The notes under the pieces: model-generated
Database searches by the model: none
The model's input: only the letters and a program-made list of their open reading frames with translations
What the model was told of the DNA's origin: nothing
Part shown: piece by piece, positions 1,852 to 52,444 of the stretch
Layout: each line of letters begins with the position of its first letter
How positions within the stretch are numbered: the first letter of the stretch is position 1
Virus record (IMG/VR): IMGVR_UViG_3300037264_003921
Span: 32,001 to 96,000 of that record
DNA length: 64,000 bases
DNA from: a virus
Reading direction: 5' to 3' (one strand)
Position numbers and translations under genes: made by a program

Positions 1852-4800
1852 TTACAACGGTATATCAGCTGTTGTAATATCATCAGAAGGGCCTTTAGTA
1901 GTAGTACCTTCAGTTATGATTAATTTTACTGCATCTATTGCTGCTTTATGTTCTTCTTCTGAAATAGTTCTCTTAACTAACACATCAGACTGATTGGTCG
2001 GGCTTGGCAGATTGTCCAACTCCCCAGCATTCAATAAATACTCAAATGGGCTATTATATTGAACCGGGCTATCATTTTTATTGGCAGTAGTTTGCTTATT
2101 GTATTCCATAAGCACTTCTTTTTCAAGTTTATAGTCATATCCCTCAATCGGAAGCATATCTAATTCTTCTTCTGCAGATAAAGGTTCCCCAAGACCTAAC
2201 TCTTCAGGTTCTCCAAGACCTGGTTCTTCAGGTCCACCCAATCCAGGAAGTCCAGCAGGTCCAGGTAAAGGCAGTAAGCTCGGCTTATTGCCACCTCCGC
2301 CTCCTCCACCACCGCCTCCACCACTTTTTGGGGCGCTGGCATTCTGTTCAGCCTCTTTCTGCATCTGTTCAATTTCATCATCTGTCATGTTGCTAAACCG
2401 TTGCAGAATCCATTTATCTGGGAATAATTCAGTCCCCTTTAATTGATCTATAACATCGGCGCGCGAAGCCCATGTCTCTATTCTATATAATTCATCAATC
2501 GCGCTCGATGCAGTCATCCACAAATCAAACCCTCTAATTTCATCTGCTGAGAATCCACGCAATGCAAGATGAATAATCGCAACCTTCTTCAAGCCGATAG
2601 CAACTTCACGTTGAATCCATTGAACTGCTTTTGCGAATTCAGGTGCTACCTTAGACAGTGGCTCTGAATTACCTTCAGATGGTTCTCCAATACCAACACG
2701 TGAAAACGGTATTTTTAGTGCCGACACCATTTTCTTCTTGAAATATTCAATATCGGCAATCTGATCAAGATTTTCAGCCCCTGGCAGAGTATCAACTTCT
2801 GGACCAGTACCATCAGCTCTTTTTGGTAGCCATATATCATCCTCTTGGATGAGTGGAGACCAGCGTTCGTTAACATCGCCGCTGGCAGGATCGAATACTT
2901 TATGCTTTTTAAACTCGCGAGCTATAAGTTGGATATATTGTGGAACTTCCTTTGGGGGGATGTTTCCTACAGGGATCTTAAAGACGCGCTTTTCTGGAGC
3001 TCGCGTGTTTGCTAGCGGAATCCCATTCGCTATAAAATTATGCACCTCATCTTCAACTGTGATATCGTAGATATCATCTACTTCTATTTCTTCGACACCT
3101 AAAATTCTTTCATGTAATGGCGCTTCTTTCTTAGTGAAATAGAAAGCCCAGCATATGGTAGCAGGCATCGTACGACCTGTTTCATGATCAATAACATGGC
3201 CACCAAGCTTCTCTATTTTCCTAACCAATCCAGCAGTCCACCCAATTCTGTGAATTAATTCTTTTAAGTCTTCTATTAAACTCTGATTGCATGATTCTAC
3301 TTCATGGCCTTCAGTTTTGCCGTTTCTATACATGCGTCGCCATCCATCACCGTCAATATATCCGTCAATAAATGCTTCTTGAACATTACGCGGCGACGTA
3401 TAGACCCATGCTGGAATACGTTTATTAGCAGCACCTGGTATAAAACCATTTAATTTCATGAATTCTACAAACTTCTTAGAATAGACAAAATATGCTCCCA
3501 ATCGATGTCCATCATCTCGACCAAATGACACTGATCTAGTTATTTTTTCGAATAAAATCTTGTATTTATCATTAATTTCTTTATCATCACCAAGTGCAAA
3601 ACCAACTTCATGAGTACATCCAGTAGCGTGTTTTCTCTCAGACACAAATCCATCAGCAATCATAAATCCAAACCACTGCGCGAAATCTTCGTCTGCTACC
3701 TCAGGAAGATCATATTCATGAACGACATCACCACGATCATCATAGCTCCAATTGTCTCTGATTTCTAATAAGTTCTTATTGACACCAACTGTCTCACAAA
3801 TAACATCAGCATTCTTCAATGTCGCCCAATGATTACCACGTAAGAATCGATCTGAAGCCCTTTTTGAAATTCTTAACACACCAGCATCACTCCAAGACAA
3901 TGTACCAGCTCCAACTAATCCCGGCAGTCTAGCATATTTCTCAATCTCTGGCTTTTGGAGTTTGACATACTCTTTGTTATCAAGCCTTGGTAAGATGAAT
4001 CTATGACAATAATTCTTAGCAACAGTGTTGTCTAAAGCCTTTAAATCTTGCACATCAACAAACTTCTCACGATCATAATACCATTTACCATCTTTTTTAT
4101 ATGGATCTACTACCAAAATTGGGTGTGTCTTGTTGGCAAAAATTTCACGATGCTGTGAATAAATGCGATATATTTTATCCTTGCCATTATGCATCCAATT
4201 GACTACTTTGGTCTCACTCAATTTGCCATCACGACCATAACAATATATTGCATCACCGATCTTTAAATCCTTGATTTGTGTATGTCCACCTGGTGTCCAA
4301 ACACGGCTGTCTCCACGAAGACATAATCTATATATCAAAGCAGCATCTTCCATCAATCTAAGCTGTTTGAAATGTTTACGTGTACCATCCAAGATCGAGT
4401 TATGAACAACAACACCATCAGCTATGAAATTAGATGCATGATGGGCTACTTGTATGTCTGCCGTTGGACGTTTACCAATCTGCTCTATTGAAGTGATTGG
4501 CTCGAAGATTACATCTGTCCCAAATTTTGCAGACTCTTTTTTGCGAGCATTATATCCACGAGATCCACTTTTCCTTTGTACATGCCCACCAGCAGATCCA
4601 AATATGTCCGATTTATAGAAATATAATAACCATGAGTCTGATCGTTGATACTCTTTACCGTGGAAGACTACTCTATCATCTTGCCTAACCCGCTTTTCTG
4701 CATGCCCAGCTTTCCAACCTATTAAATGTAACAAAGCTTTAACATCTTTAATAAGTTCATAGTTACTTAATTCTAACTGATATCGATCGCAATCCCATTC

Positions 4801-6180
4801 ATCACGATTGACAGATCCATCACTATCAATTAAACCATCTATAAATGCAATCTGAACGGACTTTGGGCTATTATAAATCCACGCAGGAATGCGTTTATTA
4901 TGTGACCCCTGAATAAATCCACATTTAGATTCTAAGAAATTTGCTAGTTCTTTAGAACAAGTATTTGTCTGATCTTCAACTAATATGCTATGCGAGCCAC
5001 AGTTTTTATATGATGTCACCTTATTTGGGCTATATTCAGACAACAACTCTTTATAATAAGTGTTAGTATCATCATAGATGCCATTAGCAAACGTCACACC
5101 GACATTTTTGCCATTAGCCCGCTTCAGCCATCCATCACCAATCAAGAACCCAAACAATTTCGCGAAATTTTCATCAGCAATTACTTGTTTGTCACAAAGC
5201 TTGCCAAGCAATTGATGTTCTTTATTGGCGGTCGGCCTAGGAATGACCAGTTCGTCTCCAGCTTTAAGTTCATCGGCCCGTTTATAAACTAAATCCGCAA
5301 ACCATTTCTGGCCAAATTTAAATGATTTTTTAGACCATTCTCTGACTAAGACAGGATGATTACCACTGCAATTATTTTCATAATGTCTTGTACTGATTTT
5401 GAATATTTCTTTTTCTCCACTATGACAAGTGGCAGTTACTTTAGATGCAATTAGTTTGTTGTCATCAAATACAAAAACATCATCTCCAGCCTTAAAGTCT
5501 TCAATATTCTTGTATCCATGTGGAGTAAGGATTTTGGCACCAAACTCGCAACAACGGCCATATGGGTGATATATGTTTTCATAACTTGTCAATCTTAGAT
5601 GCATCACCTGCCATGGATGCATGAATGTCGGCTGTGATGCCATCTCATCCTGATAAAAGAACCCAACCAGATCGCCATGTTTTGTCTCAACCCTTGTAAA
5701 ATTATAGACATTCATATGCCGTATCGAGGCTATTCCATTCCGATTCTGTGTTGTGACAATTTCGGCAGGAAAGTCACCATATTTGCATAGATATCTGATC
5801 ATCGGCCGCAAAGAATTATCCACCATCAATGTATTATAAAATAAATCCTCGAGTTCCTTTTTAACACGTAGAGATTTAGATTTTATCAATAGGCTATGGT
5901 GTATCTCAGGATCTATTAAACTAGATTCATCAGCATACATGTCAAGAGCTAATGATATTTCACCAACTTGATCCTCTTGATCGAAATCCTTATATCTCTC
6001 TAATCTATTAATCTGTAAGTTAGTCTGTTCCAGCAATGAACTCTGCGTAGAGAAGTTCATGAACTCGCCAGCGGCTGATATCCTAGCAAGAGACGATTGG
6101 TCCTGGAATAGATTCTCAGAACGATATATATTGGCGGCCTTGAAAAATGCCGCTAATCTGTCAAATAGTTGCCAACTCAT
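1852..6180 (-). CDS. Portal protein (T4 gp20-like) containing two inteins; spliced product about 618 aa
   Basis: Joined exteins read PYGR|SILDGTRKHFKQLRLMEDAALIYRL|TRAPEKRVFKIPVGN, followed by EDDIWLP...VDTLPGAENLDQIADIEYFKKK..ALKIP, all hallmark gp20 motifs. Confidence 0.93.
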   Translation of the reverse strand: MSWQLFDRLAAFFKAANIYRSENLFQDQSSLARISAAGEFMNFSTQSSLLEQTNLQINRLERYKDFDQEDQVGEISLALDMYADESSLIDPEIHHSLLIKSKSLRVKKELEDLFYNTLMVDNSLRPMIRYLCKYGDFPAEIVTTQNRNGIASIRHMNVYNFTRVETKHGDLVGFFYQDEMASQPTFMHPWQVMHLRLTSYENIYHPYGRCCEFGAKILTPHGYKNIEDFKAGDDVFVFDDNKLIASKVTATCHSGEKEIFKISTRHYENNCSGNHPVLVREWSKKSFKFGQKWFADLVYKRADELKAGDELVIPRPTANKEHQLLGKLCDKQVIADENFAKLFGFLIGDGWLKRANGKNVGVTFANGIYDDTNTYYKELLSEYSPNKVTSYKNCGSHSILVEDQTNTCSKELANFLESKCGFIQGSHNKRIPAWIYNSPKSVQIAFIDGLIDSDGSVNRDEWDCDRYQLELSNYELIKDVKALLHLIGWKAGHAEKRVRQDDRVVFHGKEYQRSDSWLLYFYKSDIFGSAGGHVQRKSGSRGYNARKKESAKFGTDVIFEPITSIEQIGKRPTADIQVAHHASNFIADGVVVHNSILDGTRKHFKQLRLMEDAALIYRLCLRGDSRVWTPGGHTQIKDLKIGDAIYCYGRDGKLSETKVVNWMHNGKDKIYRIYSQHREIFANKTHPILVVDPYKKDGKWYYDREKFVDVQDLKALDNTVAKNYCHRFILPRLDNKEYVKLQKPEIEKYARLPGLVGAGTLSWSDAGVLRISKRASDRFLRGNHWATLKNADVICETVGVNKNLLEIRDNWSYDDRGDVVHEYDLPEVADEDFAQWFGFMIADGFVSERKHATGCTHEVGFALGDDKEINDKYKILFEKITRSVSFGRDDGHRLGAYFVYSKKFVEFMKLNGFIPGAANKRIPAWVYTSPRNVQEAFIDGYIDGDGWRRMYRNGKTEGHEVESCNQSLIEDLKELIHRIGWTAGLVRKIEKLGGHVIDHETGRTMPATICWAFYFTKKEAPLHERILGVEEIEVDDIYDITVEDEVHNFIANGIPLANTRAPEKRVFKIPVGNIPPKEVPQYIQLIAREFKKHKVFDPASGDVNERWSPLIQEDDIWLPKRADGTGPEVDTLPGAENLDQIADIEYFKKKMVSALKIPFSRVGIGEPSEGNSEPLSKVAPEFAKAVQWIQREVAIGLKKVAIIHLALRGFSADEIRGFDLWMTASSAIDELYRIETWASRADVIDQLKGTELFPDKWILQRFSNMTDDEIEQMQKEAEQNASAPKSGGGGGGGGGGGNKPSLLPLPGPAGLPGLGGPEEPGLGEPEELGLGEPLSAEEELDMLPIEGYDYKLEKEVLMEYNKQTTANKNDSPVQYNSPFEYLLNAGELDNLPSPTNQSDVLVKRTISEEEHKAAIDAVKLIITEGTTTKGPSDDITTADIPL
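3007..4323 (-). mobile_element. Intein 2 in portal, 439 aa, with LAGLIDADG homing endonuclease
   Basis: Starts CLRGDSRVWTPGG, block B ANKTHPIL, ends NFIANGIPLAN before Thr. Blocks WFGFMIADG and FIDGYIDGDG. Confidence 0.9.
4399..5553 (-). mobile_element. Intein 1 in portal, 385 aa, with LAGLIDADG homing endonuclease
   Basis: Starts CCEFGAKILTPHG, ends NFIADGVVVHN before Ser. LAGLIDADG-like blocks LFGFLIGDG and FIDGLIDSDG. Confidence 0.92.
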
Positions 6181-12419: not shown

Positions 12420-15400
12420 TTACGGAGAGCACCCACCAAGAGACGTCCCACATGAAAGACATAACTTACACGGAAATTCTTGAATCAATTCGCTCCCACA
12501 TTTACTACATCCACGTCCTTTAGTGGCAGCTATAAATGTCCTCTGCCCCAATACAGATTCATTCTGTGATTTATGTCCGTTGCCATTGTGTCCATTCTTC
12601 CCATTTTTAATCATTCCACGGCGCACTTCATGCTCTGCTGGTATTTTCTTACAATAGGTTGTGTCGCCCTCGTACTCCAGCATGGCCAATTTAACAACCA
12701 AATCAGGGACGCTAGAGCAATATGTAATATATGGATGATCAGTACGGCCAGCAGGACCTCCCTCTTCATTCAAAAAACTGTCGGCAATTTCTTTTATTGG
12801 TTGGCCATATTGAATTGCATTAGACATGGATCTGCTCATCCATCTCATAGCCAATGTAAAATCTGGATTACTTTTGCCAACTTCAATCCAAATCTCAGCT
12901 AAACTACCATCTTCATATTCACCAAATTTAATGATGATCTTATGATGCCCCTGAGTTGTATAAATTGTAACTTCATGAGCAACCAGCTCACGTTTACGAG
13001 GTGGCCTACGTCTATCACCACGAAGGTACACTCTAGCGTCTTTACACGAATCGCTCCACCAACTCATATCAGTAGGGTTGTTAAGTGGTTGGCTTTGTTT
13101 AGATCCATCGCGATAGACAGCAAACCCTTTTATTCCACCTGGGCAGTAGCGAGTAGACCCCCTACCATCAAATGCCATCAGATACAAATTGCCAATATCA
13201 TCTTCGGTAGCTTCATTAGGTTCATTAACAGTTTTGCTGATAGCCCCACTGATAAATGGAGACACTGCTGAACACATTCTAACATGAGCCTCTGGATTAA
13301 TGAACCTCTTACCATATCCACTTCTATTAGCACAATCAAATATCGACAAATGCTCAGATCGTATATGTGGTGCTCCCTCAAGTGTGCCATACCCACAAAT
13401 CCATTTATTGGCTTCAATGTATTGTTCTTGTGTAAACTTTAAGGCAGTAAAAATATTCGTAGATTTTTTATCAATGTCAATCGCCTGTAGTGTGTCGTCT
13501 GACAATTTATACGGCATTAATGCATAACGCAACTGACTTACACCACTCAGATTAGCCTCTATTTCGTCTAAATCATCTACAGTAACACCGACATCAAGCA
13601 GAGATTGACGATTAATATATGGAGCGCCATCAAATGTGTTATTACCTAATACGTATATCATTATGTCGTCAACTTGAGAATCAGAGTAACCCAAATTCCG
13701 CAAACTAGTCTCAACAGACTCATTTACAATCTTCATAGAACCGCCACCAGATAAACGTTTAAATTTCACAATACCAAAATCTGGTTCAATGGCTGTGGTA
13801 TCACAGCCAAGTACAAGCCCTATAGTACCAGACGGTTGAATGACTGTAACAAATGCATTTCTATATCCAAATTTATCACCTTGTGTTATGGCATTATCCC
13901 ATGCTGCTTCAATTGTATTGGTCAATTCATCATTTATAAAACTGTGATCGATCGACCATGGCGTAACAGTGAGATTTCTAAATGAGAATGATTTTAATGA
14001 TTTACGCACAGATGCAGCACAATGATTTCGTAGTACTTGCTGCATGCAATCTTTGTTCGCTTCATAGCGAGGAAATGTTCCTAAAGTCCTAGCCATATCA
14101 GCACTTACGCTATAACATTCCGCTGTCATCAGAGAAGTGACAGCCGCAGATAGATGACATGCCTTATCACAATCATATTTGATTCCAGCCCTCATCAACA
14201 CAGCGCCGATCCCGGAATGCCCCAAACCAGTTGTACGATATTTAACAGTACCTTCTGCTAGTTGTTTGGTTGGTAATTGAGCGGCATTTATCGATATATC
14301 AAGTACCATCAACCAATGACGGCATGCAGCAATAAAATCCTTAATTTTAAGATCGCCGTTATCGTGGAATAGAGTTTGGAGATTTAAAGTAGCTAAATTA
14401 CAAGCCGTGTCGTCTAAGAATGTATATTCTAAACACGGGTTTGAAGTTTTAATTCTTCCATCAGACTTACAAGTATTCCAATCATTTATAATATCATCAT
14501 ACTGAACACCAGGATCGCCAGATTCCCAAGCAGCTTTTTTAATATATTGCCACAATTCTCTAGCCTTCATTCGTCTGATCACTTGTCCAGTTGTCCGAGC
14601 TGTCATATCCCACATGACATCACCAACGACTGCATCTAAAAATTTCTTAGATAGGCGTATTGAATTGTTGGAGTTTTGTCCTGATACTGTTTGATAAGCT
14701 TCTCCCTCCCATCCAGCATCAAAACCGCCAATTGCTAAGGCTTGAGTCTTTTTCTCTTCGATTCCTTTCCATAAAATAAATTCTGGTGCCTCTGGATGGT
14801 CTATATCAACAACCACCATCTTGGCAGCCTTTCGTTGTGAAGATCCTGATTTTACAACACCTGCTGACCTATCAAAGATTTTCAAGAAACTCATCAGCCC
14901 AGTGGCTGGGTTGCCACTACTCAACTTTTCAAATTTTGAACGAATAGCAGAAAAATTTGAGCCAGAGCCTCCACCAGAGACGAATGCTCTTGCTTCGCTT
15001 ACTATTCTATTAAATATGCCATCTTCTTCAAATAAACTGTCACCAACAGATTGTAAAAAGCACGCATGGATACCAGGATTTTCATATGTATTACTAGTTT
15101 CATTAGCGACACAAGTCTTTGGATCAGCTTTCCAGAATCCTTTCTTTTTCCCTGCATGTCCATATGCCCAGTAGACGCCACTATTAAACCATTGCGGGGT
15201 ATTAGGGGCAGCAATTTGGTTTATCAACATGTAGACTGATTCGTCATAAAAAATCTTCGCATCAGCCTCTTCATCGAAATATCCATACCACCAACCCCAA
15301 TAAGCCCAGAATCCAGCTAGTCTATGAAAAATCTGTTTTGTACTAGTCTCAGGCCCAAATTGACATCCATCAACAGGTGTAGAGCGCTGTAGCCAATCTG

Positions 15401-15650
15401 ATATCTGTTTGCCAGAAGGGGTTGATTCAGACACTTTAATGCTTTTACTAGGGACATTAGTTAACCTCAGGTATTTTGATAGGATTATATCCTGAGAGAT
15501 TTGAGACCAATGTGCTGGTATCTCAATGTTTTCTATCTTAAAAATGATTTCATTTGTGTTTTCATTTTTAATTGTGGTACTAACTTCTTTCCATTCAACA
15601 TAGCTAAATGGATCAATCCCATCTTCTGTAAAATGTCTAGCCAATTTCAT
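12420..15650 (-). CDS. nrdJ: Class II (adenosylcobalamin-dependent) ribonucleotide reductase
   Basis: APNTPQWFN, HACF, GGGSGSNFS, SNPCLEY..LDDTACNLA, PSGTIG, ISGAISKTVN, YRDGSK..QPL, and a C-terminal CxxC..CxxC. Confidence 0.93.
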   Translation of the reverse strand: MKLARHFTEDGIDPFSYVEWKEVSTTIKNENTNEIIFKIENIEIPAHWSQISQDIILSKYLRLTNVPSKSIKVSESTPSGKQISDWLQRSTPVDGCQFGPETSTKQIFHRLAGFWAYWGWWYGYFDEEADAKIFYDESVYMLINQIAAPNTPQWFNSGVYWAYGHAGKKKGFWKADPKTCVANETSNTYENPGIHACFLQSVGDSLFEEDGIFNRIVSEARAFVSGGGSGSNFSAIRSKFEKLSSGNPATGLMSFLKIFDRSAGVVKSGSSQRKAAKMVVVDIDHPEAPEFILWKGIEEKKTQALAIGGFDAGWEGEAYQTVSGQNSNNSIRLSKKFLDAVVGDVMWDMTARTTGQVIRRMKARELWQYIKKAAWESGDPGVQYDDIINDWNTCKSDGRIKTSNPCLEYTFLDDTACNLATLNLQTLFHDNGDLKIKDFIAACRHWLMVLDISINAAQLPTKQLAEGTVKYRTTGLGHSGIGAVLMRAGIKYDCDKACHLSAAVTSLMTAECYSVSADMARTLGTFPRYEANKDCMQQVLRNHCAASVRKSLKSFSFRNLTVTPWSIDHSFINDELTNTIEAAWDNAITQGDKFGYRNAFVTVIQPSGTIGLVLGCDTTAIEPDFGIVKFKRLSGGGSMKIVNESVETSLRNLGYSDSQVDDIMIYVLGNNTFDGAPYINRQSLLDVGVTVDDLDEIEANLSGVSQLRYALMPYKLSDDTLQAIDIDKKSTNIFTALKFTQEQYIEANKWICGYGTLEGAPHIRSEHLSIFDCANRSGYGKRFINPEAHVRMCSAVSPFISGAISKTVNEPNEATEDDIGNLYLMAFDGRGSTRYCPGGIKGFAVYRDGSKQSQPLNNPTDMSWWSDSCKDARVYLRGDRRRPPRKRELVAHEVTIYTTQGHHKIIIKFGEYEDGSLAEIWIEVGKSNPDFTLAMRWMSRSMSNAIQYGQPIKEIADSFLNEEGGPAGRTDHPYITYCSSVPDLVVKLAMLEYEGDTTYCKKIPAEHEVRRGMIKNGKNGHNGNGHKSQNESVLGQRTFIAATKGRGCSKCGSELIQEFPCKLCLSCGTSLGGCSP

Positions 15651-35269: not shown

Positions 35270-36817
35270 CTATTTTTGCAACCATCTCACATAACGAAGC
35301 TTTTCTTTCCCAAGCACCTTATGCATCCCATATTTAATAGCATATTGATTTTCATCTAATTTAAGCCTAGCTGCATGATCCCACACAGTCTTCTTATGAT
35401 ACCAAGCGTTGTTAGCATCAACATACCAATAGTCAGGCTTTACAAACCCATCAAACTTCCATCCTGCAGCCCTATAGATTGTCCCTTCATGAGCATAAGT
35501 CGTATCGGCAAATGTATAGATCACCTTAACCAATGGCTTGTTACCTTTAATAAATCGTATAGCCTTTCCCAACAACATAGAAGCTAAATTCTTTTTTTGA
35601 TATTGTGGATGTATCACAAATCTAGTCAGCTCTAATGCATGTTTAGAAAGTACATTAAGGCGTTTAGCACTTTGCTCTCTTGTAGGATGAGAGAAAACGG
35701 CAGATGCAATAATTTTATTATTCAGCTTAGCAACATATCTAACTGAACCAAATCTGCCAATATTAGCCATATAATGGTACTTAGCAAACAAACTTCTTAA
35801 TTCATCTGTAACATCGGCGCATTCAAATATGATATCACTAAAGTTGAAATCAATGATTTCATATGGTTTATTAAGCCCAAGCTTTTCGCGAATAATATTT
35901 TCTACAAGTTGTCTACTACGGAACTCATAATCCCAAATTGCTAAAAGATCATAATCTTCACCAAAATAAGTTTTAAGGAATGTTGCTTTTGCATTATCAT
36001 TAGCTTGTTTGTTCTTTGTATAATGCCAATAGCCTTGGCATTCAATCATCAAATTTTTCTGCATCGACCCATGTTTCGGTATCTTGCAGTCGAATATATA
36101 GCCAGTAAAACGGCTATTCGTAGTAACAATTGGACCAACAGTGGTTTGAGCACCCTCAGCAAAGTATGGCACTTTAAGATCATCTAGTATTGAATATAAA
36201 GTTGTTTGTAGTGAAGACACTTTATTAGTATGCCACGAAGATAATCTAGCTTTATCCAGCACATTGATCATTTTGTTTCTATATTCAGGCGACTGCCAAA
36301 GCTCCTTTGAGCGCTTAGAAGCAGCAGCGTAATATTTAGACTCAGATCTAAGCTCATGCTGTCGTTTGGCATAATCCTTATCAGCCCAAGCTTTTTTGCT
36401 GGTGTTACTAATATTCGTTTTGCCTTTATCAGAGCGCCGCCAGTGTAATCTTCGTTCACGCTCACTAGCAGAACAATTTTCCCAACTACGTCGCTGGCTA
36501 TATGCTATTTTACGCTTTATATTATTATTATGGACTTTTGCTGCATAATCAGGATCATCATGCAAATTAGCAAATTTCTTGCAATATGTCGGGTCCTTAT
36601 ATATTGGATTTGCACGCGACTCAGCTGCAAGTATTGGTTTCAAGCATTTATTGCATACCCATTGACCAGGCCTACGACGCTTCCTACGCCGATAATTCCC
36701 AACAGTTGTGCTTAATACAGCATAGCAAACAGCACATTTTAGTGTCAAATATGCAGCACTATCCAAAGATGCTGGCTGTTCAATAACCTGCTGATCTACA
36801 ATGCCTTTAGATTTCAC
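35270..36817 (-). CDS. Zn-ribbon + basic helical repeats + Vsr/DUF559-like nuclease + Mom-like GNAT fusion
   Basis: CAVC..CNKC; FD..IECQGYWH..D..K..IWDYE; HY..ELTRF..NLAS..TFADTTYAHEGTIYRAAGW; PDYWY. Confidence 0.7.
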   Translation of the reverse strand: MKSKGIVDQQVIEQPASLDSAAYLTLKCAVCYAVLSTTVGNYRRRKRRRPGQWVCNKCLKPILAAESRANPIYKDPTYCKKFANLHDDPDYAAKVHNNNIKRKIAYSQRRSWENCSASERERRLHWRRSDKGKTNISNTSKKAWADKDYAKRQHELRSESKYYAAASKRSKELWQSPEYRNKMINVLDKARLSSWHTNKVSSLQTTLYSILDDLKVPYFAEGAQTTVGPIVTTNSRFTGYIFDCKIPKHGSMQKNLMIECQGYWHYTKNKQANDNAKATFLKTYFGEDYDLLAIWDYEFRSRQLVENIIREKLGLNKPYEIIDFNFSDIIFECADVTDELRSLFAKYHYMANIGRFGSVRYVAKLNNKIIASAVFSHPTREQSAKRLNVLSKHALELTRFVIHPQYQKKNLASMLLGKAIRFIKGNKPLVKVIYTFADTTYAHEGTIYRAAGWKFDGFVKPDYWYVDANNAWYHKKTVWDHAARLKLDENQYAIKYGMHKVLGKEKLRYVRWLQK

Positions 36818-47277: not shown

Positions 47278-48426
47278 TTAGTCAACAAATATATAGTCAT
47301 TATGATTTGGACCTGTCCCAATCATTACAACTGGTATACCTGCGGTCTCTTCCATCTTATCAATAAATTTTCTAACCTTAATTGGCAGTTTATTAAACTG
47401 CGTTCTGCCGCCATGCATCTGATACGCAGACCAGTCAATATATTGTGGAAAATTTAATATCTGTTTAGTAGCCCCGCAGAATGAAGCGGATTCTTTAAGC
47501 AATTGCCATGAGAATGTAAACACACGTCTAATCTTCTTAGTAACTGTGGTACGTTCTTTTTCTGCCAACACTGATATCTCTGATTCAGGCATACCAGCTT
47601 CCCTGCCAATCTGATCCCATGTTAATTCATGTTGATCAGACATACAATCACCAGAGTATCCAGTTTGTTTCCCATCTCTATAATTATTACCAACACGAAT
47701 AGGGAATGTTCTGACGTTTAGATACACGTCACCAACCATATTTGGTAATATGCCAAGATCAGAATATGCTTGTTGTGGTGTGCAGTCTCTGAACGTACAA
47801 TATGGATAGTGTGTGCCATGATTGACAGATAAAGCAAATCCTTGTGATACTTCATGCATAATTGAGTGCCCATCGCTTAACGTTCTGCGCACAGTATCAA
47901 CAAATTGCATAGGCGTCAAAGTACTCATAACGTCGCTAGCTAACGTTGTCTCCGGTCTGCGCATTGATTTCTCTGAAAATGCAGCTCCTGAGCCAGACAT
48001 TGTTGAAGAAACTCTTTCTGTTGATTGAGATCCATTAGGAGATTCAATATCAATATGCCGCTGGCTCATAATAACAGCGCGTTGATGGATTTTGACAAGT
48101 TTATCATTTATTTTATAGCCAGTTTGTTCAAGTTCCTTATTAAATTGTTCAATCATAAATCCAGATCCTGGACCAACAAATAAATTCAAATTGCTAAATC
48201 TGTCTGCTTTAGTCTTATGAAGAATCGCTGAAGTTGGAACTACTTTTGCAACAAATTTGACATTACCATCTAATCCATCAATGATGGCAGTATGTCCAGC
48301 ATTTGCATAATTACATGTTGAAACATTATTAATATTATATATATCAACAAGCCGCGTTGATGCAGCTCCTTTTGCAGAGCTACCCCAGGCTGAGTCAACA
48401 ATACAATTAAGTTTACCCTTTTGCAT
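47278..48426 (-). CDS. purZ: Adenylosuccinate-synthetase-family enzyme with PurZ signatures
   Basis: WGSSAKG (Ser where PurA has catalytic Asp), NAGHT, QGFALS..YPYCT.RD, RTFPIRVG, DQHELTW, TTVTKKIRRVFTFS, LNFPQY, GTGP. Confidence 0.78.
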   Translation of the reverse strand: MQKGKLNCIVDSAWGSSAKGAASTRLVDIYNINNVSTCNYANAGHTAIIDGLDGNVKFVAKVVPTSAILHKTKADRFSNLNLFVGPGSGFMIEQFNKELEQTGYKINDKLVKIHQRAVIMSQRHIDIESPNGSQSTERVSSTMSGSGAAFSEKSMRRPETTLASDVMSTLTPMQFVDTVRRTLSDGHSIMHEVSQGFALSVNHGTHYPYCTFRDCTPQQAYSDLGILPNMVGDVYLNVRTFPIRVGNNYRDGKQTGYSGDCMSDQHELTWDQIGREAGMPESEISVLAEKERTTVTKKIRRVFTFSWQLLKESASFCGATKQILNFPQYIDWSAYQMHGGRTQFNKLPIKVRKFIDKMEETAGIPVVMIGTGPNHNDYIFVD

Positions 48427-48860: not shown

Positions 48861-49604
48861 TCATAGACATTTAATGTATTTGGCCTGCCAGCCATTTTTA
48901 GACGTCGCCAAAGCAACATATTTGTCAACTAATGATTCTGGAACGTTATCCTTAATCCATTTTCTCTCGATCCATTTGAATCCAGCTTTTTTCAAAAACT
49001 CTTTTTGCAAATTAAAATCGGCATCGTCAAAATTAGGCTTGCCACTAAACCAGGCTTCAACCTTACAACGTGGCTCATTCATAATCTTCATAGCATGTTC
49101 TAAATTGTGCTTCGCCGCTAACTCACAACATGTTAATGCATCCCATAATGCTCTATGTCTCCTACCTGAATCTACGCCATAATCAACAGCAAGGTGTTGT
49201 AGTCTTGTTGAATTAACATTACCAACAATCTTTTCATGTGGTAAATCATTTTTAGTGCATATCCATGGCAACGATAAAAACTCTGGCCACCTCTTTGTTA
49301 TTAATCCTTTATCATAATCTTTATTATGTGCAACAATAACCACTGGTTTATAATGCTCTACTAATTTCCATGGATTAAATTCACAACTATAACCATTATT
49401 AGATACGTCACGTTTAATTTTGTGTATAACTTCCGCTTCATTTGACCATTTTGTTGTTTTAAGAATATCAGAATGCATTGCTACAACCTGACTGTGGGTC
49501 GTATCATATACGACCATGCCGATCTCTACTATTTCATCAACATCAATGTTGAGACCAGTGCTCTCTACGTCAACAGATAAAATAATCATTAACCACAAAG
49601 CCAA
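48861..49604 (-). CDS. DEDDh 3'-5' exonuclease (DnaQ-like)
   Basis: DVESTGL, EIVEIG, VAHNKDYD, WICT, HRALWDA. Confidence 0.88.
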   Translation of the reverse strand: MALWLMIILSVDVESTGLNIDVDEIVEIGMVVYDTTHSQVVAMHSDILKTTKWSNEAEVIHKIKRDVSNNGYSCEFNPWKLVEHYKPVVIVAHNKDYDKGLITKRWPEFLSLPWICTKNDLPHEKIVGNVNSTRLQHLAVDYGVDSGRRHRALWDALTCCELAAKHNLEHAMKIMNEPRCKVEAWFSGKPNFDDADFNLQKEFLKKAGFKWIERKWIKDNVPESLVDKYVALATSKNGWQAKYIKCL

Positions 49605-49614
49605 TTATATCGTT

Positions 49615-50046
49615 TTAATTCCATGGAATTTTCTCCACCCAATGTTGTGGGACCCATAATAATGACCCATCATTAAACTCGACACGATAATGCTTGTGGT
49701 CTCGTTTAGTTACTCTAGCTGGTTCCATATATTTTACATGTTCTTTATTAATTACTATAATCCATGTACCCTCATTGAGTTCTGGGATTTGTGTTTTAAA
49801 AACTGGTATTCTATTGACTATCGCCAATTCACTATTTGACAGTCTGGCCCAAAACAAATTTGTGCATTTTATGCATATGATCGGTACATAGCCAACCTTC
49901 TCCCATGAAGAAGATACAGCTTTATTTTGCACATTACAAAATGGACAATTGAAATCGTCTGTTATAGACTCATTTGACATCTGGACCCAACGTGTCGACG
50001 GCTTTTTCTTTGGCTGGCTCTTGCGTTTTTTGCGTTTCTTGCTCAT
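49615..50046 (-). CDS. Zn-ribbon protein with SH3-like C-terminus
   Basis: CPFC..CIKC; basic N-terminus; YRVEFNDG..LWVP. Confidence 0.55.
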   Translation of the reverse strand: MSKKRKKRKSQPKKKPSTRWVQMSNESITDDFNCPFCNVQNKAVSSSWEKVGYVPIICIKCTNLFWARLSNSELAIVNRIPVFKTQIPELNEGTWIIVINKEHVKYMEPARVTKRDHKHYRVEFNDGSLLWVPQHWVEKIPWN

Positions 50047-50689
50047 TATAAAACCTAATTATATTACTAGCTTGGTTTAGATTAACATCAAATCGCATAT
50101 TTCTATCAGATTTAAATGCTTCAATTGTCTCATATGTCACATTACATGATATCTTTATCGGAGTAACGATCTTATTACGAACAACAGCAATCGCTTTCTT
50201 ATGATCCTCCAATCCAACGCCATTCTTCAATGTATATGGATCTAATCTAACCCAATTACATGGATATTTCACAATGGCATCAATATGCTGTTCAGATATA
50301 CCACGGCCATAAGACCCAACTATCCATCTAATTTCAGCAACTGGGTTCACAGATTTTAAAAATTCAGAAATTAATCTAACTTCATTGTCAATCTCTTTCC
50401 CAGTATGGCCATTTGAATACATTATATCGAATCCATCCGCAGCCAACGCATCCTCAGAAAGATCACGCAATTTTTGCATTGCAAAATTCTTGCCATCAGG
50501 ATAGTCAATAACAGCAATAATTTTATACTTACCACGTTTTGAAACCCTATCAGCGATAAATGGGGCAACTAAGCTAGGCACAGTAACTATTGCAGGGCAA
50601 CTGTGTTTAAATACAAATGCGCCAACACGTACTGGATTTACCATTTTATCTAAAGCATTTAATTCTAATCGTGTAGTAATTTGCAACAT
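49970..50689 (-). CDS. DeoC (deoxyribose-phosphate aldolase)-like TIM barrel, divergent
   Basis: AIVTVP, AVIDYPDG (cf. TVIGFPLG), ADGFDIM (cf. ADEIDMV), IKIS (cf. VKAS). Confidence 0.55.
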   Translation of the reverse strand: MLQITTRLELNALDKMVNPVRVGAFVFKHSCPAIVTVPSLVAPFIADRVSKRGKYKIIAVIDYPDGKNFAMQKLRDLSEDALAADGFDIMYSNGHTGKEIDNEVRLISEFLKSVNPVAEIRWIVGSYGRGISEQHIDAIVKYPCNWVRLDPYTLKNGVGLEDHKKAIAVVRNKIVTPIKISCNVTYETIEAFKSDRNMRFDVNLNQASNIIRFYNEQETQKTQEPAKEKAVDTLGPDVK

Positions 50690-51264
50690 TTCTTTTCCTT
50701 TTCATTTGTAAAACCATCATAACATACTGAAAACCATTTCAATGGGTCCATCTTAATACTGCCATTATCCAATTTATCAACATGCCCAATTAATTGATCC
50801 CATGTTCTGAAAAACACATGATCCATATCTTGTGGCGTTGAAAACCTCTGTAATACCCATGTTGATGCAATCCCATCTGGCATACAAAATAAGACTGGTT
50901 TATCTATATCAGCTGCTAGATATATCTCTTCGAACGTGCCTGCGGTATACTTAATTGGCATCCAACATATAATCCAATCAGCAGACGACACCATTTTCAA
51001 ACAAACTTGACGTAATTCTTTATTTGCATCGAATACATCATTTATTGTTATCCCAACAGGCTCACCATTTAGACTTTTACGATATAATTTTGGGTCTACT
51101 TTTGAAATATCAGACAACCAACTAGGTTTAACTAATGGATCATATACTTTGACATTATATTTTAATAAACTACTAGTTATTTGGGTACGCCAATCTTTTG
51201 CATGGTCATCATGTTCAACTGGACCTGCTAAATATACTCGCGTGCCACCCAATAAATTCCCCAT
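50665..51264 (-). CDS. Nucleoside 2-deoxyribosyltransferase / dNMP N-glycosidase family protein
   Basis: VYLAGP, WR, VYDP, MVSSADWII, GTFEEIYLA, KPV. Confidence 0.78.
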   Translation of the reverse strand: MGNLLGGTRVYLAGPVEHDDHAKDWRTQITSSLLKYNVKVYDPLVKPSWLSDISKVDPKLYRKSLNGEPVGITINDVFDANKELRQVCLKMVSSADWIICWMPIKYTAGTFEEIYLAADIDKPVLFCMPDGIASTWVLQRFSTPQDMDHVFFRTWDQLIGHVDKLDNGSIKMDPLKWFSVCYDGFTNEKEKKCCKLLHD

Positions 51265-51472: not shown

Positions 51473-52444
51473 CTATTCTATAGTTTTTAATTCATTCAAT
51501 ATTATATCTACAGCTGTCTTCTGATCAAGTTTGCCAAAATACTCAGCAAACTTATATTTATTATATGATGAACAAAAAAATATCTTCTGTCGTTCTTCAG
51601 GTGTCAGTACATTTACAGCTGACATATAACTTTCTGCCTCACTATCAAATCGTTTTAGACGTACATCATTAGCTACATCTGGGTTTTGTCCATAAAAATG
51701 TAACTTACCACTCACAGAACACATATCGACACCAAAGATGTAAATTTTATCATATTGCATCCAAACAGCTGTTTGAATATTTGCATATGTTGATGATCTA
51801 CCAACATGATACCCTCTTACTAGATCTCTAGAAAACCCCTTTCCAGATAAACTCTTTATCAAAACTTGGTTCTTATGTGGTGCTCGCACAGATGACGCAT
51901 TTAATGTAGTACCATTATATTTTTCCCATATTTGTTTATTCCTTGTATATTGACTCTGATCGCAAAATGCCCAATAGCGTGATGGCCATATTCTGCTATC
52001 TGGTCTATTAATACACATTATGTCTATTTTCTTGTTATCTTTCAACTTTTCCAATGGCGCTTCAAGAACAGATGGTCCACATGCTACAATCACTAATATT
52101 CTACCACGCCCAATGCCACGCAATCCTTCAATCGCTGCTCTAAATTGCGCTACTCTATTTGAATTGAGCCTATTTACACTACTGCTTATTAGACGTGGTT
52201 TATGTTCTCTTATTGGGAAGTTTACTCTAACATCTCTCTTTTGCTTAGGCTGCTGTTTGATTATTGGTTTCGCAGCTTTAACCAACACTACCTGTGGCAC
52301 TCTTGGTTGTATAATTTTTTGTTCAATATTTTGAGTCCTATTCGGTTTATTAACTTTAATGTGGACTCTCTGAATTGGTAGTTTATTCAATGATCTATAA
52401 TTATGTGCCACAAAATATCTTTGGCATAAATTACAACCAACCAA
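51473..52444 (-). CDS. DUF115/Maf-like (GT42-related) glycosyltransferase-fold protein
   Basis: IVACGPSV, IMCIN, YWAFCD, SSTY..IQTAVWMQYDKIYIFGVDM, HFYG. Confidence 0.7.
   Translation of the reverse strand: MVGCNLCQRYFVAHNYRSLNKLPIQRVHIKVNKPNRTQNIEQKIIQPRVPQVVLVKAAKPIIKQQPKQKRDVRVNFPIREHKPRLISSSVNRLNSNRVAQFRAAIEGLRGIGRGRILVIVACGPSVLEAPLEKLKDNKKIDIMCINRPDSRIWPSRYWAFCDQSQYTRNKQIWEKYNGTTLNASSVRAPHKNQVLIKSLSGKGFSRDLVRGYHVGRSSTYANIQTAVWMQYDKIYIFGVDMCSVSGKLHFYGQNPDVANDVRLKRFDSEAESYMSAVNVLTPEERQKIFFCSSYNKYKFAEYFGKLDQKTAVDIILNELKTIE

What the first reader, a model, noticed from the sequence alone, without database searches (positions are those of the whole stretch)
47278..48426. PurZ-signature synthetase in a giant T4-like myophage: possible Z-genome or novel purine
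Seen: GSSAKG with Ser at the PurA catalytic Asp position, PIRV, TTVTKKIRRVFTFS, and LNFPQY lacking the GTP-specifying Asp. Known: these substitutions separate PurZ (dGMP + Asp + ATP, leading to 2-aminoadenine) from PurA and from GTP-using PurZ0. The Z-genome phages I know of are much smaller sipho/podoviruses. Further deviations (GSSAKG vs GSTGKG, EVSQG vs EGAQG, CTFRD vs CTSRD, SSTMSG) could mean a shifted substrate. Inference: this phage may make dZTP or another N6-derived purine.
Basis: partly seen in the sequence, partly recalled or inferred. Interest (0 to 1): 0.85.

Follow-up and report, generated by a model that had tools for sequence, protein, structure and literature searches.

The report
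PurZ-type gene in huge phage
A fragment of an uncultured phage of roughly 370 kb carries an intact, divergent relative of PurZ, the enzyme small phages use to replace adenine with 2-aminoadenine (Z) in DNA, so this giant phage probably makes Z-DNA too, though no chemistry has been measured.

Summary

- **Residues:** it has Ser where PurA has the catalytic Asp. It keeps every dGMP-pocket and ATP-base residue described for S-2L and phiVC8 PurZ (PMC8342488).
- **Phylogeny:** it lies in a well-supported clade of its own (22 tips, 100/96), separate from the clade holding the four characterised PurZ (96/98) and from PurZ0.
- **Family cut-off:** it scores below NCBIfam's PurZ cut-off (196 against 300 bits).
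- **Distribution:** the clade occurs on 50 IMG/VR contigs of up to 436 kb. No GenBank phage record is more than 36% identical.
- **Own record:** it is a 125-kb fragment, 34% complete, of a contractile-tailed phage with a split DnaE-type polymerase.
- **Helper genes:** datZ and mazZ are not adjacent. Instead an NDT-superfamily gene and a DERA-fold gene lie upstream, a block shared by 18 of 51 loci. PurB is phage-encoded in 11 of 28 related records.

Z-DNA is likely but untested, and a palindrome-avoidance test proved uninformative. The scan has made the same finding before on other DNA: 34 notes in at least 21 genomes.

The parts
47278..48426 (-). PurZ-type succino-amino-deoxyadenylate synthetase homologue, 382 aa (P0001)
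   Evidence: ORF. PF00709 87.6 bits. NCBIfam PurZ NF038379 is the best model at 196.2 bits, below its cut-off of 300. PDB phiVC8 PurZ 1.6e-32. Substrate-contact residues conserved. Sits in a clade of its own.
48861..49604 (-). DEDDh-type 3'-5' exonuclease, 247 aa, two genes upstream of PurZ on the same strand
   Evidence: PF00929 RNase_T 5.6e-9. phrog_192 'DNA polymerase exonuclease subunit' 1.3e-22. NCBIfam 3'-5' exonuclease and epsilon-like models score below their cut-offs. tblastn finds it upstream of PurZ in 4 of 50 related loci, and ORF clustering in 6 of 51 loci including the window's own.
49615..50046 (-). 143-aa zinc-ribbon-like ORF. It overlaps the next gene by 77 nt as called, so its start is uncertain.
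   Evidence: ORF. Weak PF05129 match, 0.0015, below cut-off. tblastn match upstream of PurZ in 6 of 50 loci.
49970..50689 (-). 239-aa protein with a deoxyribose-5-phosphate aldolase (DERA/DeoC) fold. No sequence family.
   Evidence: No Pfam or PHROG family apart from one sub-cut-off PCNA_N match, 0.0075. AlphaFold2 on 16 sequences gives pLDDT 91.9 and pTM 0.86. The 31 Foldseek PDB rows printed (ranks to 49) are DERA or aldolase entries, best 6d33_A at E 1e-11, TM 0.74/0.78. Orthologues lie upstream of PurZ in 18 of 51 loci. Invariant K73, F110, R148, N183.
50665..51264 (-). NDT-superfamily protein, 199 aa, resembling nucleoside 2-deoxyribosyltransferases and nucleotide N-glycosidases
   Evidence: PF15891 36.0 bits (cut-off 30) and PF05014 29.2 bits (cut-off 28.8). 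A profile of 13 orthologues hits CMP N-glycosidase 4jen at 6e-8, then NDTs and MilB/BlsM. Invariant Y11 and E113. An NDT-like ORF lies within 6 kb upstream of PurZ in 15 of 51 loci.
51473..52444 (-). 323-aa conserved protein at the head of the block. Only weak glycosyltransferase-like matches, role unknown.
   Evidence: PF01973 MptE-like 23.8 bits, below its cut-off of 34.6. phrog_4603 6e-6. WaaZ TIGR04437 24.5 bits, far below 200. Found upstream of PurZ in 16 of 50 loci by tblastn; the matching ORF cluster spans 16 of 51 loci, the window's own among them.

Best explanation
The gene encodes a working PurZ-type enzyme of a separate, huge-phage branch of the family.

**Proposed pathway**
1. The enzyme condenses dGMP with aspartate, using ATP or dATP, to give N6-succino-2-amino-dAMP.
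2. An adenylosuccinate lyase (PurB) turns this into dZMP. The lyase is the host's here, and phage-encoded in many relatives.
3. Host kinases make dZTP.
4. The phage's DnaE-type replisome puts 2-aminoadenine (Z) into the genome opposite T.

**Shown:** the fold family, the conserved substrate-contact residues, the clade, its spread in huge phages, and the gene neighbourhood.

**Inferred:**
- the substrates;
- that Z reaches virion DNA, and how completely;
- that the upstream NDT-superfamily protein removes dAMP as an N-glycosidase in the manner of DmtZ;
- that the DERA-fold protein handles the released deoxyribose 5-phosphate;
- that the DEDDh exonuclease proofreads for the replisome.
For: **The enzyme itself**
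- Ser16 sits at the PurA Asp13 position, as in 245 of 248 aligned rows. The three exceptions are E. coli PurA, one gapped row and one misaligned row.
- Of the 8 dGMP-base-pocket positions of S-2L PurZ, 7 are identical and invariant in 32 of 32 clade members. The eighth, Y21, contacts through its backbone; it is W in the query, and W or H in the clade (residue list from PMC8342488, section 7).
- T293 matches S-2L T273 and phiVC8 T262, where PurA has Gly. V245 and a still longer insertion after it match the deoxy-selecting loop (PMC8342488, section 8).
- The ATP-base residues N325, F326, Q328 and Y329 are kept. N325, F326 and Y329 are invariant, and Q328 holds in 31 of 32. Both PurZ0 rows have Asp at the Q328 position.
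- The best family model is NCBIfam PurZ (196 bits, against 158 for archaeal-type PurA). The best solved structure is phiVC8 PurZ.

**The tree**
- With E. coli PurA as root, PurZ0 splits off first. The query's clade and the characterised PurZ clade lie together in a group with SH-aLRT 95-97.

**Selection and spread**
- 120 of the 120 homologues listed have E of 1.8e-100 or less, at 41-70% identity.
- There are 50 IMG/VR loci. Of the 27 whole records searched, 12 are at least 90% complete, at 160-436 kb.

**The pathway around it**
- A Lyase_1 gene occurs in 11 of 28 of these records. Both of the two tested pass the purB equivalog cut-off (348.6 and 473.8 against 326.2), one of them in the closest relative.
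- NDT-family enzymes have recently been tied to Z synthesis: DmtZ, a dAMP hydrolase/transferase (PMC12884076, sections 21-23), and NDT on dZ-enriched contigs (bioRxiv 10.1101/2025.10.22.683976, section 11).
- Here an NDT-like gene with invariant catalytic Tyr and Glu lies 2.2 kb upstream of PurZ, and within 6 kb upstream in 15 of 51 loci.
Against: - No member of this clade has been assayed. The clade is separate from every characterised PurZ.
- The score is below NCBIfam's PurZ cut-off.
- An archaeal-type PurA structure scores almost as well as phiVC8 PurZ (111.6 against 116.2 bits). Overall similarity therefore does not decide; only the residues and the tree do.
- The classical helpers are not adjacent and are not universal:
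  - The own record has no HD (PF01966) or MazG match.
  - Among the 12 near-complete relatives, HD is found in 7, HD_3 in 5 and MazG in 2.
- The own HD_3 protein is 22 kb away and 19% identical to S-2L DatZ. It has F and R where DatZ has W20 and I22.
- The only phage-database match of the NDT-like protein is LR756511.1, a huge phage with no PF00709 gene. That family is therefore not tied to PurZ alone.
- The DERA-fold protein seems to have Arg where DERA has its Schiff-base Lys. I inferred this from strand order, not from a superposition.
- A restriction-site avoidance test could not tell Z phages from others.
- The record is only 34% complete.
Confidence: 0.65

Rival explanations
1. The enzyme does make the 2-amino-dAMP precursor, but Z is not the final or complete genomic base. 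It could be only partly incorporated. It could serve mainly to drain dATP and dGMP pools. Or it could be modified further on DNA, for example by the Mom-family enzyme these phages carry.
For: - A protein with a Mom-family C-terminal domain lies in the window at 35270-36817.
- Proteins of the same ORF cluster lie directly beside PurZ in 8 of 51 loci. Only one of them, L015:11118-12818, was put to Pfam and matched the Mom family.
- dATP-clearing genes are patchy among complete relatives.
- S-2L PurZ also acts as a dATPase (PMC8342488, abstract and section 7).
Against: - In every characterised case PurZ goes with full A-to-Z replacement (abstracts of PMC8342488 and PMC12884076).
- No evidence here shows that a Mom-family enzyme acts on Z.
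- The Mom-like gene is 10 kb from PurZ in this window.
Confidence: 0.17
2. The enzyme has a different nucleotide substrate (IMP, GMP or dIMP). Together with PurB it would act as an auxiliary purine-salvage pair that raises (d)AMP supply, or it would make another N6-derived purine.
For: - The clade is distinct and unassayed.
- PurB is co-encoded in 11 of 28 records, as a PurA/PurB pair would be.
- Second-shell changes: A18 for Gly, S140 for Gly, W14 for Phe/Tyr.
Against: - The catalytic Asp of PurA is absent in all 32 clade members.
- T293 and the S16 pocket that accommodate the 2-amino group are invariant.
- The V245 loop insertion that excludes ribose is present and longer.
- K298 stands where PurA has the Arg (R303) that binds the ribose O2' (PMC8342488, section 8).
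Confidence: 0.12
3. The gene is a decaying or non-functional copy acquired from a small Z phage.
For: None found, beyond the lack of adjacent datZ and mazZ.
Against: - The frame is intact and full-length: all 31 other members of alignment A1 align with it end to end at 46-71% identity, with 60 invariant columns that include the catalytic set.
- Synteny is conserved in 18 loci.
- No GenBank phage is more than 36% identical.
Confidence: 0.02

Closest known systems
PurZ of Vibrio phage phiVC8 (PDB 6FM1/6FKO/6TNH) and cyanophage S-2L (PDB 7ODX); also Acinetobacter phage SH-Ab 15497 and Salmonella phage PMBT28
   Same: - Same fold family.
- Ser at the PurA Asp13 position.
- Same dGMP pocket.
- Same Thr-rich aspartate loop (TTVTK).
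- Same ATP-type N-F-x-Q/N-Y site.
- Same loop insertion after the conserved Val.
   Different: - About 33-34% identity by tblastn.
- A separate, well-supported clade.
- Below the NCBIfam PurZ cut-off.
- P-loop GSSAKG instead of GSTGKG.
- Carried by a phage of about 370 kb with contractile-tail genes and a DnaE-type polymerase, not a 39-48 kb phage with DpoZ or PrimPol.
- datZ and mazZ are not adjacent.
PurZ0 of Gordonia phage Archimedes and Arthrobacter phage Beethoven. That PDB 7VF6 is a PurZ0 is recalled and taken from an earlier scan note, not shown by a call.
   Same: - Ser at the Asp13 position.
- Ala in the P-loop (GSEAKG against GSSAKG).
- An NDT-family partner enzyme in the genome (DmtZ in PurZ0 phages, PMC12884076).
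   Different: - PurZ0 keeps the GTP-type Asp and has Met where the query has F326.
- It branches off before the query's group in all three trees.
- 7vf6 scores only 3.1e-16.
PurA (adenylosuccinate synthetase) of E. coli, and the short archaeal type (PDB 2D7U/5K7X; that these are Pyrococcus horikoshii is recalled)
   Same: - Same superfamily.
- Same P-loop Lys, His45 and Gln195.
- The same aspartate chemistry is expected.
   Different: PurA has, where the query differs:
- the catalytic Asp, against Ser;
- Gly, against T293;
- a GTP-binding Asp, against Q328;
- Arg303, against K298.
DmtZ, an NDT-superfamily dAMP hydrolase/transferase of PurZ0 phages (PMC12884076). Relevant to the upstream gene at 50665-51264.
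   Same: - NDT superfamily.
- Catalytic Tyr near the N-terminus and the G-T/S-x-x-E nucleophile are invariant.
- An acidic residue (E17) stands six residues after the Tyr, where DmtZ has Asp12. I read this by eye against the paper's numbering.
- Linked to a PurZ-type gene.
   Different: - No DmtZ sequence was aligned here.
- tblastn against 50,697 phage records found only LR756511.1, so the protein is not close to any DmtZ in GenBank phages.
- It is not fused to a Dut domain.
- Its activity is unknown.

Membership tests
Adenylosuccinate synthetase superfamily (Pfam PF00709) | Score above the Pfam gathering cut-off | tested here: met
   87.6 bits against 27.
PurZ (NCBIfam NF038379, succino-amino-deoxyadenylate synthase) | Score above the curated cut-off of 300 bits | tested here: not met
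   196.2 bits. It is the best-scoring model but falls below the cut-off.
PurZ | Ser in place of the catalytic Asp13 of PurA | tested here: met
   S16. Ser holds in 32 of 32 clade members and in 245 of 248 aligned rows.
PurZ | [quoted passage not shown] | tested here: met
   W14-G15-S16, T293 and V245 with a longer insertion. All but W14 are invariant in the clade, where position 14 is W or H.
PurZ (ATP-using) as against PurZ0 or PurA (GTP-using) | N-F-x-Q/N-Y at the nucleotide-base site, with no Asp | tested here: met
   N325, F326, Q328 and Y329. PurZ0 has M and D at the F326 and Q328 positions, and E. coli PurA has V and D.
PurZ | Falls inside the clade of experimentally characterised PurZ | tested here: not met
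   Careful IQ-TREE run on 65 rows. The query clade has 22 tips (100/96) and the characterised clade 22 tips (96/98). The join of the two is unresolved (17/79), and the bootstrap had not fully settled.
PurZ | Z-cluster context: datZ (HD) and mazZ or DUF550 next to purZ | tested here: not met
   - No PF01966 or PF03819 match in the own record.
- One HD_3 protein lies 22 kb away and lacks W20/I22.
- The PF04447 search was uninformative because its control rang nowhere.
PurZ | Catalyses dGMP + Asp + (d)ATP to the succino product; virion DNA contains dZ | not testable with these tools
   Needs an enzyme assay and nucleoside analysis.
DERA/DeoC class I aldolase (for the 239-aa neighbour) | TIM-barrel DERA fold | tested here: met
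   The 31 Foldseek PDB rows printed (ranks to 49) are DERA or aldolase entries, with TM 0.62-0.75 and E down to 1e-11.
DERA/DeoC class I aldolase (for the 239-aa neighbour) | Schiff-base Lys on strand 6 (E. coli K167; position recalled) | tested here: inconclusive
   An invariant R148 ends predicted strand 6, and K179 lies on strand 7. This was mapped by strand order only, with no residue-level superposition. No sequence-level DERA match was found.
NDT superfamily (for the 199-aa neighbour) | Pfam cut-off, plus the catalytic Tyr and Glu | tested here: met
   PF15891 36.0 bits against 30, and PF05014 29.2 against 28.8. Y11 and E113 are invariant in 13 of 13 sequences.

The most novel reading that the evidence does not exclude
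A lineage of 160-436 kb phages, represented here by a contractile-tailed phage with a DnaE-type (Pol III alpha) polymerase, replicates Z-substituted genomes. In place of DatZ and MazZ it would use a different adenine-clearing module: an NDT-superfamily dAMP N-glycosidase, a DERA-fold protein that may lack the canonical Schiff-base lysine, a stand-alone DEDDh proofreader, and often its own PurB. A Mom-family enzyme beside purZ in some members may modify the amino-purine further. That would make Z-DNA compatible with a third polymerase family and raise the known size limit of Z genomes about five-fold.
Probability: 0.3. Interest if true: 0.85.

Novelty: new variant of a known kind. Interest (0 to 1): 0.6.

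Why it matters
In the papers I could read, and among the characterised phages fetched here (39-48 kb), Z genomes belong to small phages that replicate with DpoZ (family A) or PrimPol.

If this clade is active, several things follow:
- Complete or partial A-to-Z replacement exists in phages about ten times larger, with Pol III-type replisomes.
- The accessory steps (dATP/dAMP removal, dGMP supply, the lyase step) have been solved in yet another way. This extends the 'functional convergence' picture of PMC12884076.
- The clade offers new enzymes for making Z-DNA in vitro: a divergent PurZ, a phage PurB, an NDT-like N-glycosidase, and a replisome that tolerates Z.
- Huge-phage contigs in metagenomes that carry this gene may be under-represented or mis-handled by restriction-based or signal-based methods.

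Tried and rejected
**1. Palindrome-avoidance test for protection of A:T sites**

I computed observed/expected counts for 6-bp palindromes under a maximal-order Markov model.

| Genome group | GC-only palindromes O/E | A/T-containing palindromes O/E | A/T palindromes at Poisson p<1e-3 |
|---|---|---|---|
| Own genome | 0.46 (23/50.5) | 0.94 (2152/2286) | 0 of 51 testable |
| Five other PurZ+ huge phages | 0.27-0.88 | 0.90-0.97 | 0, 2, 5, 0 and 9 of 55-56 |
| Two PurZ-less huge phages (100 kb each) | 0.27 and 0.08 | 0.74 and 0.87 | 16/49 and 5/43 |

- This looked supportive. The calibration on three known Z phages then gave 0.77 (PMBT28, 6/33 significant), 0.91 and 0.92.
- Those values overlap both groups, so I treat the test as uninformative.
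- It fits the abstract of PMC12944874 (search listing only), which says 47% of tested restriction enzymes still cut dZ DNA.

**2.** The search for related loci with the single protein found nothing. The alignment A1 was needed.

**3.** The PF04447 (DUF550) search gave 0 of 28, but the control rang in no genome, so it says nothing.

**4.** I asked whether the 245-aa protein upstream of PurZ in the other 18 loci is related to the DERA-fold protein. hhalign gave probability 0.3%, so they are unrelated.

**5.** A profile of the DERA-fold family against PDB sequences gave no meaningful hit.

**6.** megablast of 6 kb around the gene against 50,697 phage records found no match.

**7.** Promoter-like sites around the block are at chance level (37 against 36.4). 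One terminator-like site lies at 46047-46027 (-).

**8.** Literature. I found no paper linking PurZ or 2-aminoadenine with jumbo or huge phages. The searches were:
- 'PurZ'+'jumbo'
- 'PurZ'+'diaminopurine'+'myovir'
- 'adenylosuccinate synthetase'+'huge phages'
- '2-aminoadenine'+'jumbo phage'
- 'find' look-ups inside PMC12884076, the bioRxiv preprint and PMC13128860

[quoted passage not shown] Such lists, and the closed supplements of all these papers, may already include this clade.

**9.** I did not run complex prediction, read laying, the look-up of sequencing runs or the protein-atlas search.

**Rows dropped:** the trees used only proteins of 335-430 aa, so intein-bearing forms of about 750-1200 aa and fragments were left out. 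The 65-row set held 56 hand-picked proteins: 51 of the 120 representatives plus five close homologues.
Full report
**What is there.** The window holds a single intact ORF at 47278-48426 on the minus strand, 382 aa. The protein belongs to the adenylosuccinate synthetase superfamily:
- PF00709, 87.6 bits against a cut-off of 27.
- PHROG 1211 '2-aminooxy adenylosuccinate synthetase', 3e-50.

Among solved structures the best match is the 363-residue chain of 6FM1/6FKO/6TNH (1.6e-32), which PMC8342488 names as phiVC8 PurZ. S-2L PurZ (7ODX) follows at 1.3e-27. A short archaeal-type PurA (2D7U/5K7X) scores almost the same as phiVC8 PurZ (3.8e-31), so overall similarity does not decide the question. 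NCBIfam ranks its PurZ model first (196.2 bits) ahead of archaeal-type PurA (157.8). Both are below their cut-offs of 300 and 368.

**Residues.** I aligned 248 sequences: 240 homologues of 330-460 aa, plus eight references translated from annotated records. The position of PurA's catalytic Asp holds Ser in 245 rows. The three exceptions are E. coli PurA, one gapped row and one misaligned row.

I then mapped the contacts listed for the S-2L PurZ crystal structure (PMC8342488, sections 7 and 8, read) and the residues ranked in bioRxiv 10.1101/2025.10.22.683976 (section 8, read). The query keeps the following:
- the dGMP base pocket (G15, S16, N42, A43, T142, Q195, V245, with W14 for the backbone-contacting Tyr/Phe);
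- R156, T211 and R244;
- the aspartate loop T293-T294-V295-T296-K297;
- R300, W270 and P242;
- the adenine-binding N325, F326, Q328 and Y329.

Nearly all of these are invariant in the 32-sequence clade alignment A1. PurZ0 has Met and Asp, and E. coli PurA has Val and Asp, where the query has F326 and Q328. By every published determinant this is an ATP-type PurZ.

- GSSAKG (52 rows) and GSSGKG (89 rows) are the commonest P-loops of the Ser-type family.
- The F of CTFRD is at a site that is S in phiVC8 and A in S-2L.

**Phylogeny.** Three trees rooted on E. coli PurA agree. PurZ0 leaves first. In the two quick trees the remaining Ser-type proteins form a supported group (SH-aLRT 95 and 97). In the finished IQ-TREE run on 65 rows:
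- the query's clade has 22 tips at UFBoot 100 / SH-aLRT 96;
- the clade holding phiVC8, S-2L, SH-Ab 15497 and PMBT28 PurZ has 22 tips at 96/98;
- the order among these clades is unresolved (17/79), and the bootstrap had not fully settled.

The protein is therefore a member of the PurZ-like radiation, but of a branch with no characterised member.

**Who carries it.** The window lies in a 125,263-bp IMG/VR contig that CheckV rates 34% complete.
- Structural genes: tail sheath, baseplate wedge and hub, a gp17-type terminase, and a long portal ORF with insertions. Outside the window there is a gp32-like SSB.
- Nearest terminases: those of two uncultured huge phages, LR756508.1 (484 kb) and LR756511.1 (595 kb), at about 30% identity. 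Neither has a PF00709 gene.
- Replication genes outside the window: a Pol III alpha (DnaE-type) split into two ORFs, a 380-aa PolA-domain protein, and DnaB. There is no PolB.
- No GenBank phage record holds a protein more than 36% identical (199 of 50,697 records matched).
- In metagenomes the clade is large. 921 proteins have E of 1e-10 or less, and the 120 listed are at 41-70% identity on contigs up to 428,825 bp.
- In the 50%-clustered library, 211 representatives have E of 1e-30 or less. Several are about 750-1200 aa and match in two or three stretches, which I read as intein-bearing forms without checking.
- An IMG/VR scan with the clade alignment returned 50 loci on contigs of 16.9-436 kb. 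Of the 27 records searched whole, 12 are at least 90% complete, at 160-436 kb.

**Pathway context.** The own record has no HD (PF01966) or MazG match. It does have one HD_3/YfbR-like protein at record positions 102461-103063, beyond the window. That protein is 19% identical to S-2L DatZ and has F and R at DatZ's specificity positions W20 and I22 (positions from section 10 of the preprint).

Across the 27-28 records, the counts are:

| Family | Records with a match | Of the 12 near-complete records |
|---|---|---|
| HD (PF01966) | 10 of 27 | 7 |
| HD_3 (PF13023) | 8 of 28 | 5 |
| MazG (PF03819) | 3 of 27 | 2 |
| NDT (PF05014) | 11 of 28 | 5 |
| Lyase_1 (PF00206) | 11 of 28 | 4 |

Both Lyase_1 genes that I examined pass NCBIfam's purB equivalog cut-off. 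One of them comes from the closest relative of this phage. The papers read here describe the lyase step as host-encoded (introduction of the preprint).

**Neighbourhood.** I clustered the ORFs within about 6 kb of PurZ in 51 loci. Two conserved contexts emerged.

The window's type (18 loci) reads, on one strand:
1. a 323-aa protein;
2. an NDT-like protein;
3. a 239-aa protein;
4. sometimes a zinc-ribbon ORF and a DEDDh exonuclease;
5. PurZ.

Details on these genes:
- The 239-aa protein has no sequence family apart from one sub-cut-off PCNA_N match. It folds with pLDDT 91.9 into a DERA-like TIM barrel, and the 31 Foldseek PDB rows printed are DERA or aldolase entries. This confirms a lead from an earlier scan note. 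Its invariant R148 seems to sit where DERA has the Schiff-base Lys, so a plain aldolase role is doubtful (inference).
- The NDT-like proteins come in two sub-types, 15 of 51 loci together. They share an invariant Tyr and Glu. Their profile hits CMP N-glycosidase and NDT structures.
- This matters because NDT-family enzymes were tied to Z synthesis only recently. DmtZ hydrolyses dAMP and transfers deoxyribose 5-phosphate to Z (PMC12884076, sections 21-23). NDT domains are enriched on dZ contigs (preprint, section 11).

The other context (18 loci) has an unrelated 245-aa protein upstream and ThyX downstream.

A Mom-family fusion protein lies directly beside PurZ in 8 loci. In this window it is at 35270-36817.

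**An attempted indirect test.** If A:T pairs were protected, A/T-containing restriction palindromes should escape avoidance while GC-only ones should not. The own genome fits that pattern: 0.94 against 0.46, with GCCGGC, GGCGCC, GGGCCC and CCGCGG absent. Two PurZ-less huge phages avoid A/T palindromes more strongly (0.74 and 0.87). Three known Z phages span 0.77-0.92, so the measure does not discriminate and I give it no weight.

**Verdict.**
- The PurZ reading is supported at the level of residues and family.
- The 'shifted substrate' reading is not supported.
- The Z genome remains an inference. I put it at about 0.65 for the whole chain, and higher for the enzyme's chemistry alone.
- The thing is a new branch and a new genomic setting of a known system.
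- The four searches and three in-paper look-ups found no paper describing it. Closed supplements and large homology lists may contain it.
- This scan has already reported the same kind of finding on other DNA: 34 notes in at least 21 genomes.

Noticed in passing
window 35270-36817 (-): A 515-aa protein whose C-terminal third matches the Mom DNA-modification family (phrog_1384, 1.4e-28). Its N-terminal part matches HNH and homing-endonuclease families. The same kind of protein lies directly beside PurZ in 8 of 51 related loci; L015:11118-12818 has Pfam Mom PF25680 plus HTH domains.
   Followed up: partly
L072 5001-6871 (Sorangium sp. So ce131 chromosome) and L071 (Chondromyces apiculatus DSM 436): Two myxobacterial genomes hold a PurZ-type gene 39-40% identical to the query, in DNA of 65-67% GC. 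In Sorangium it is followed at once by a 253-aa protein with a C-terminal dUTPase domain (3.5e-30), and an ERCC4 nuclease lies nearby. This resembles a PurZ plus Dut-type pair in a prophage or chromosome.
   Followed up: partly
record positions 103932-105341 and 106732-108933 (beyond the window; L062 7932-9341 and 10732-12933): The DnaE-type Pol III alpha is split into two ORFs about 1.4 kb apart: PHP plus the start of the NTPase domain, then the rest plus fingers and HhH. An earlier scan note suggests an intein remnant between the fragments.
   Followed up: no
window 1852-6180 (-): The portal ORF is 1442 aa, but the portal family matches only residues 1057-1283. The rest matches terminase, endonuclease and RNR families weakly, which suggests inteins or homing-endonuclease insertions. 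The RNR large subunit at 12420-15650 is also long, at 1076 aa.
   Followed up: no
whole record G000 (125 kb): The GC-only 6-bp palindromes GCCGGC, GGCGCC, GGGCCC and CCGCGG are absent, although 3.7-7.0 copies of each are expected. Non-palindromic GC-only hexamers are at O/E 1.03. This looks like restriction avoidance.
   Followed up: partly
L066 802-2205 (closest relative's contig) and 10 other related records: Phage-encoded adenylosuccinate lyase (purB, above the NCBIfam equivalog cut-off) occurs in huge phages that carry this PurZ clade: 11 of 28 records have a Lyase_1 gene, and both of the two checked are purB.
   Followed up: partly
record positions 101277-102062 (beyond the window) and window 51473-52444 (-): A DAHP-synthetase-I-family protein (1.4e-41; possibly KDO-8-phosphate-synthase-like, which is my guess) sits next to the HD_3 gene. 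A protein with faint WaaZ/KDO-transferase-like matches sits in the PurZ block. Whether the two are linked is unknown.
   Followed up: no
proteins P0121-P0129, P0137, P0138, P0142 and P0259: Many representatives of this PurZ clade are 730-1200 aa and match the query in two or three separate stretches. I take this as intein insertions in the PurZ gene; I did not check them.
   Followed up: no
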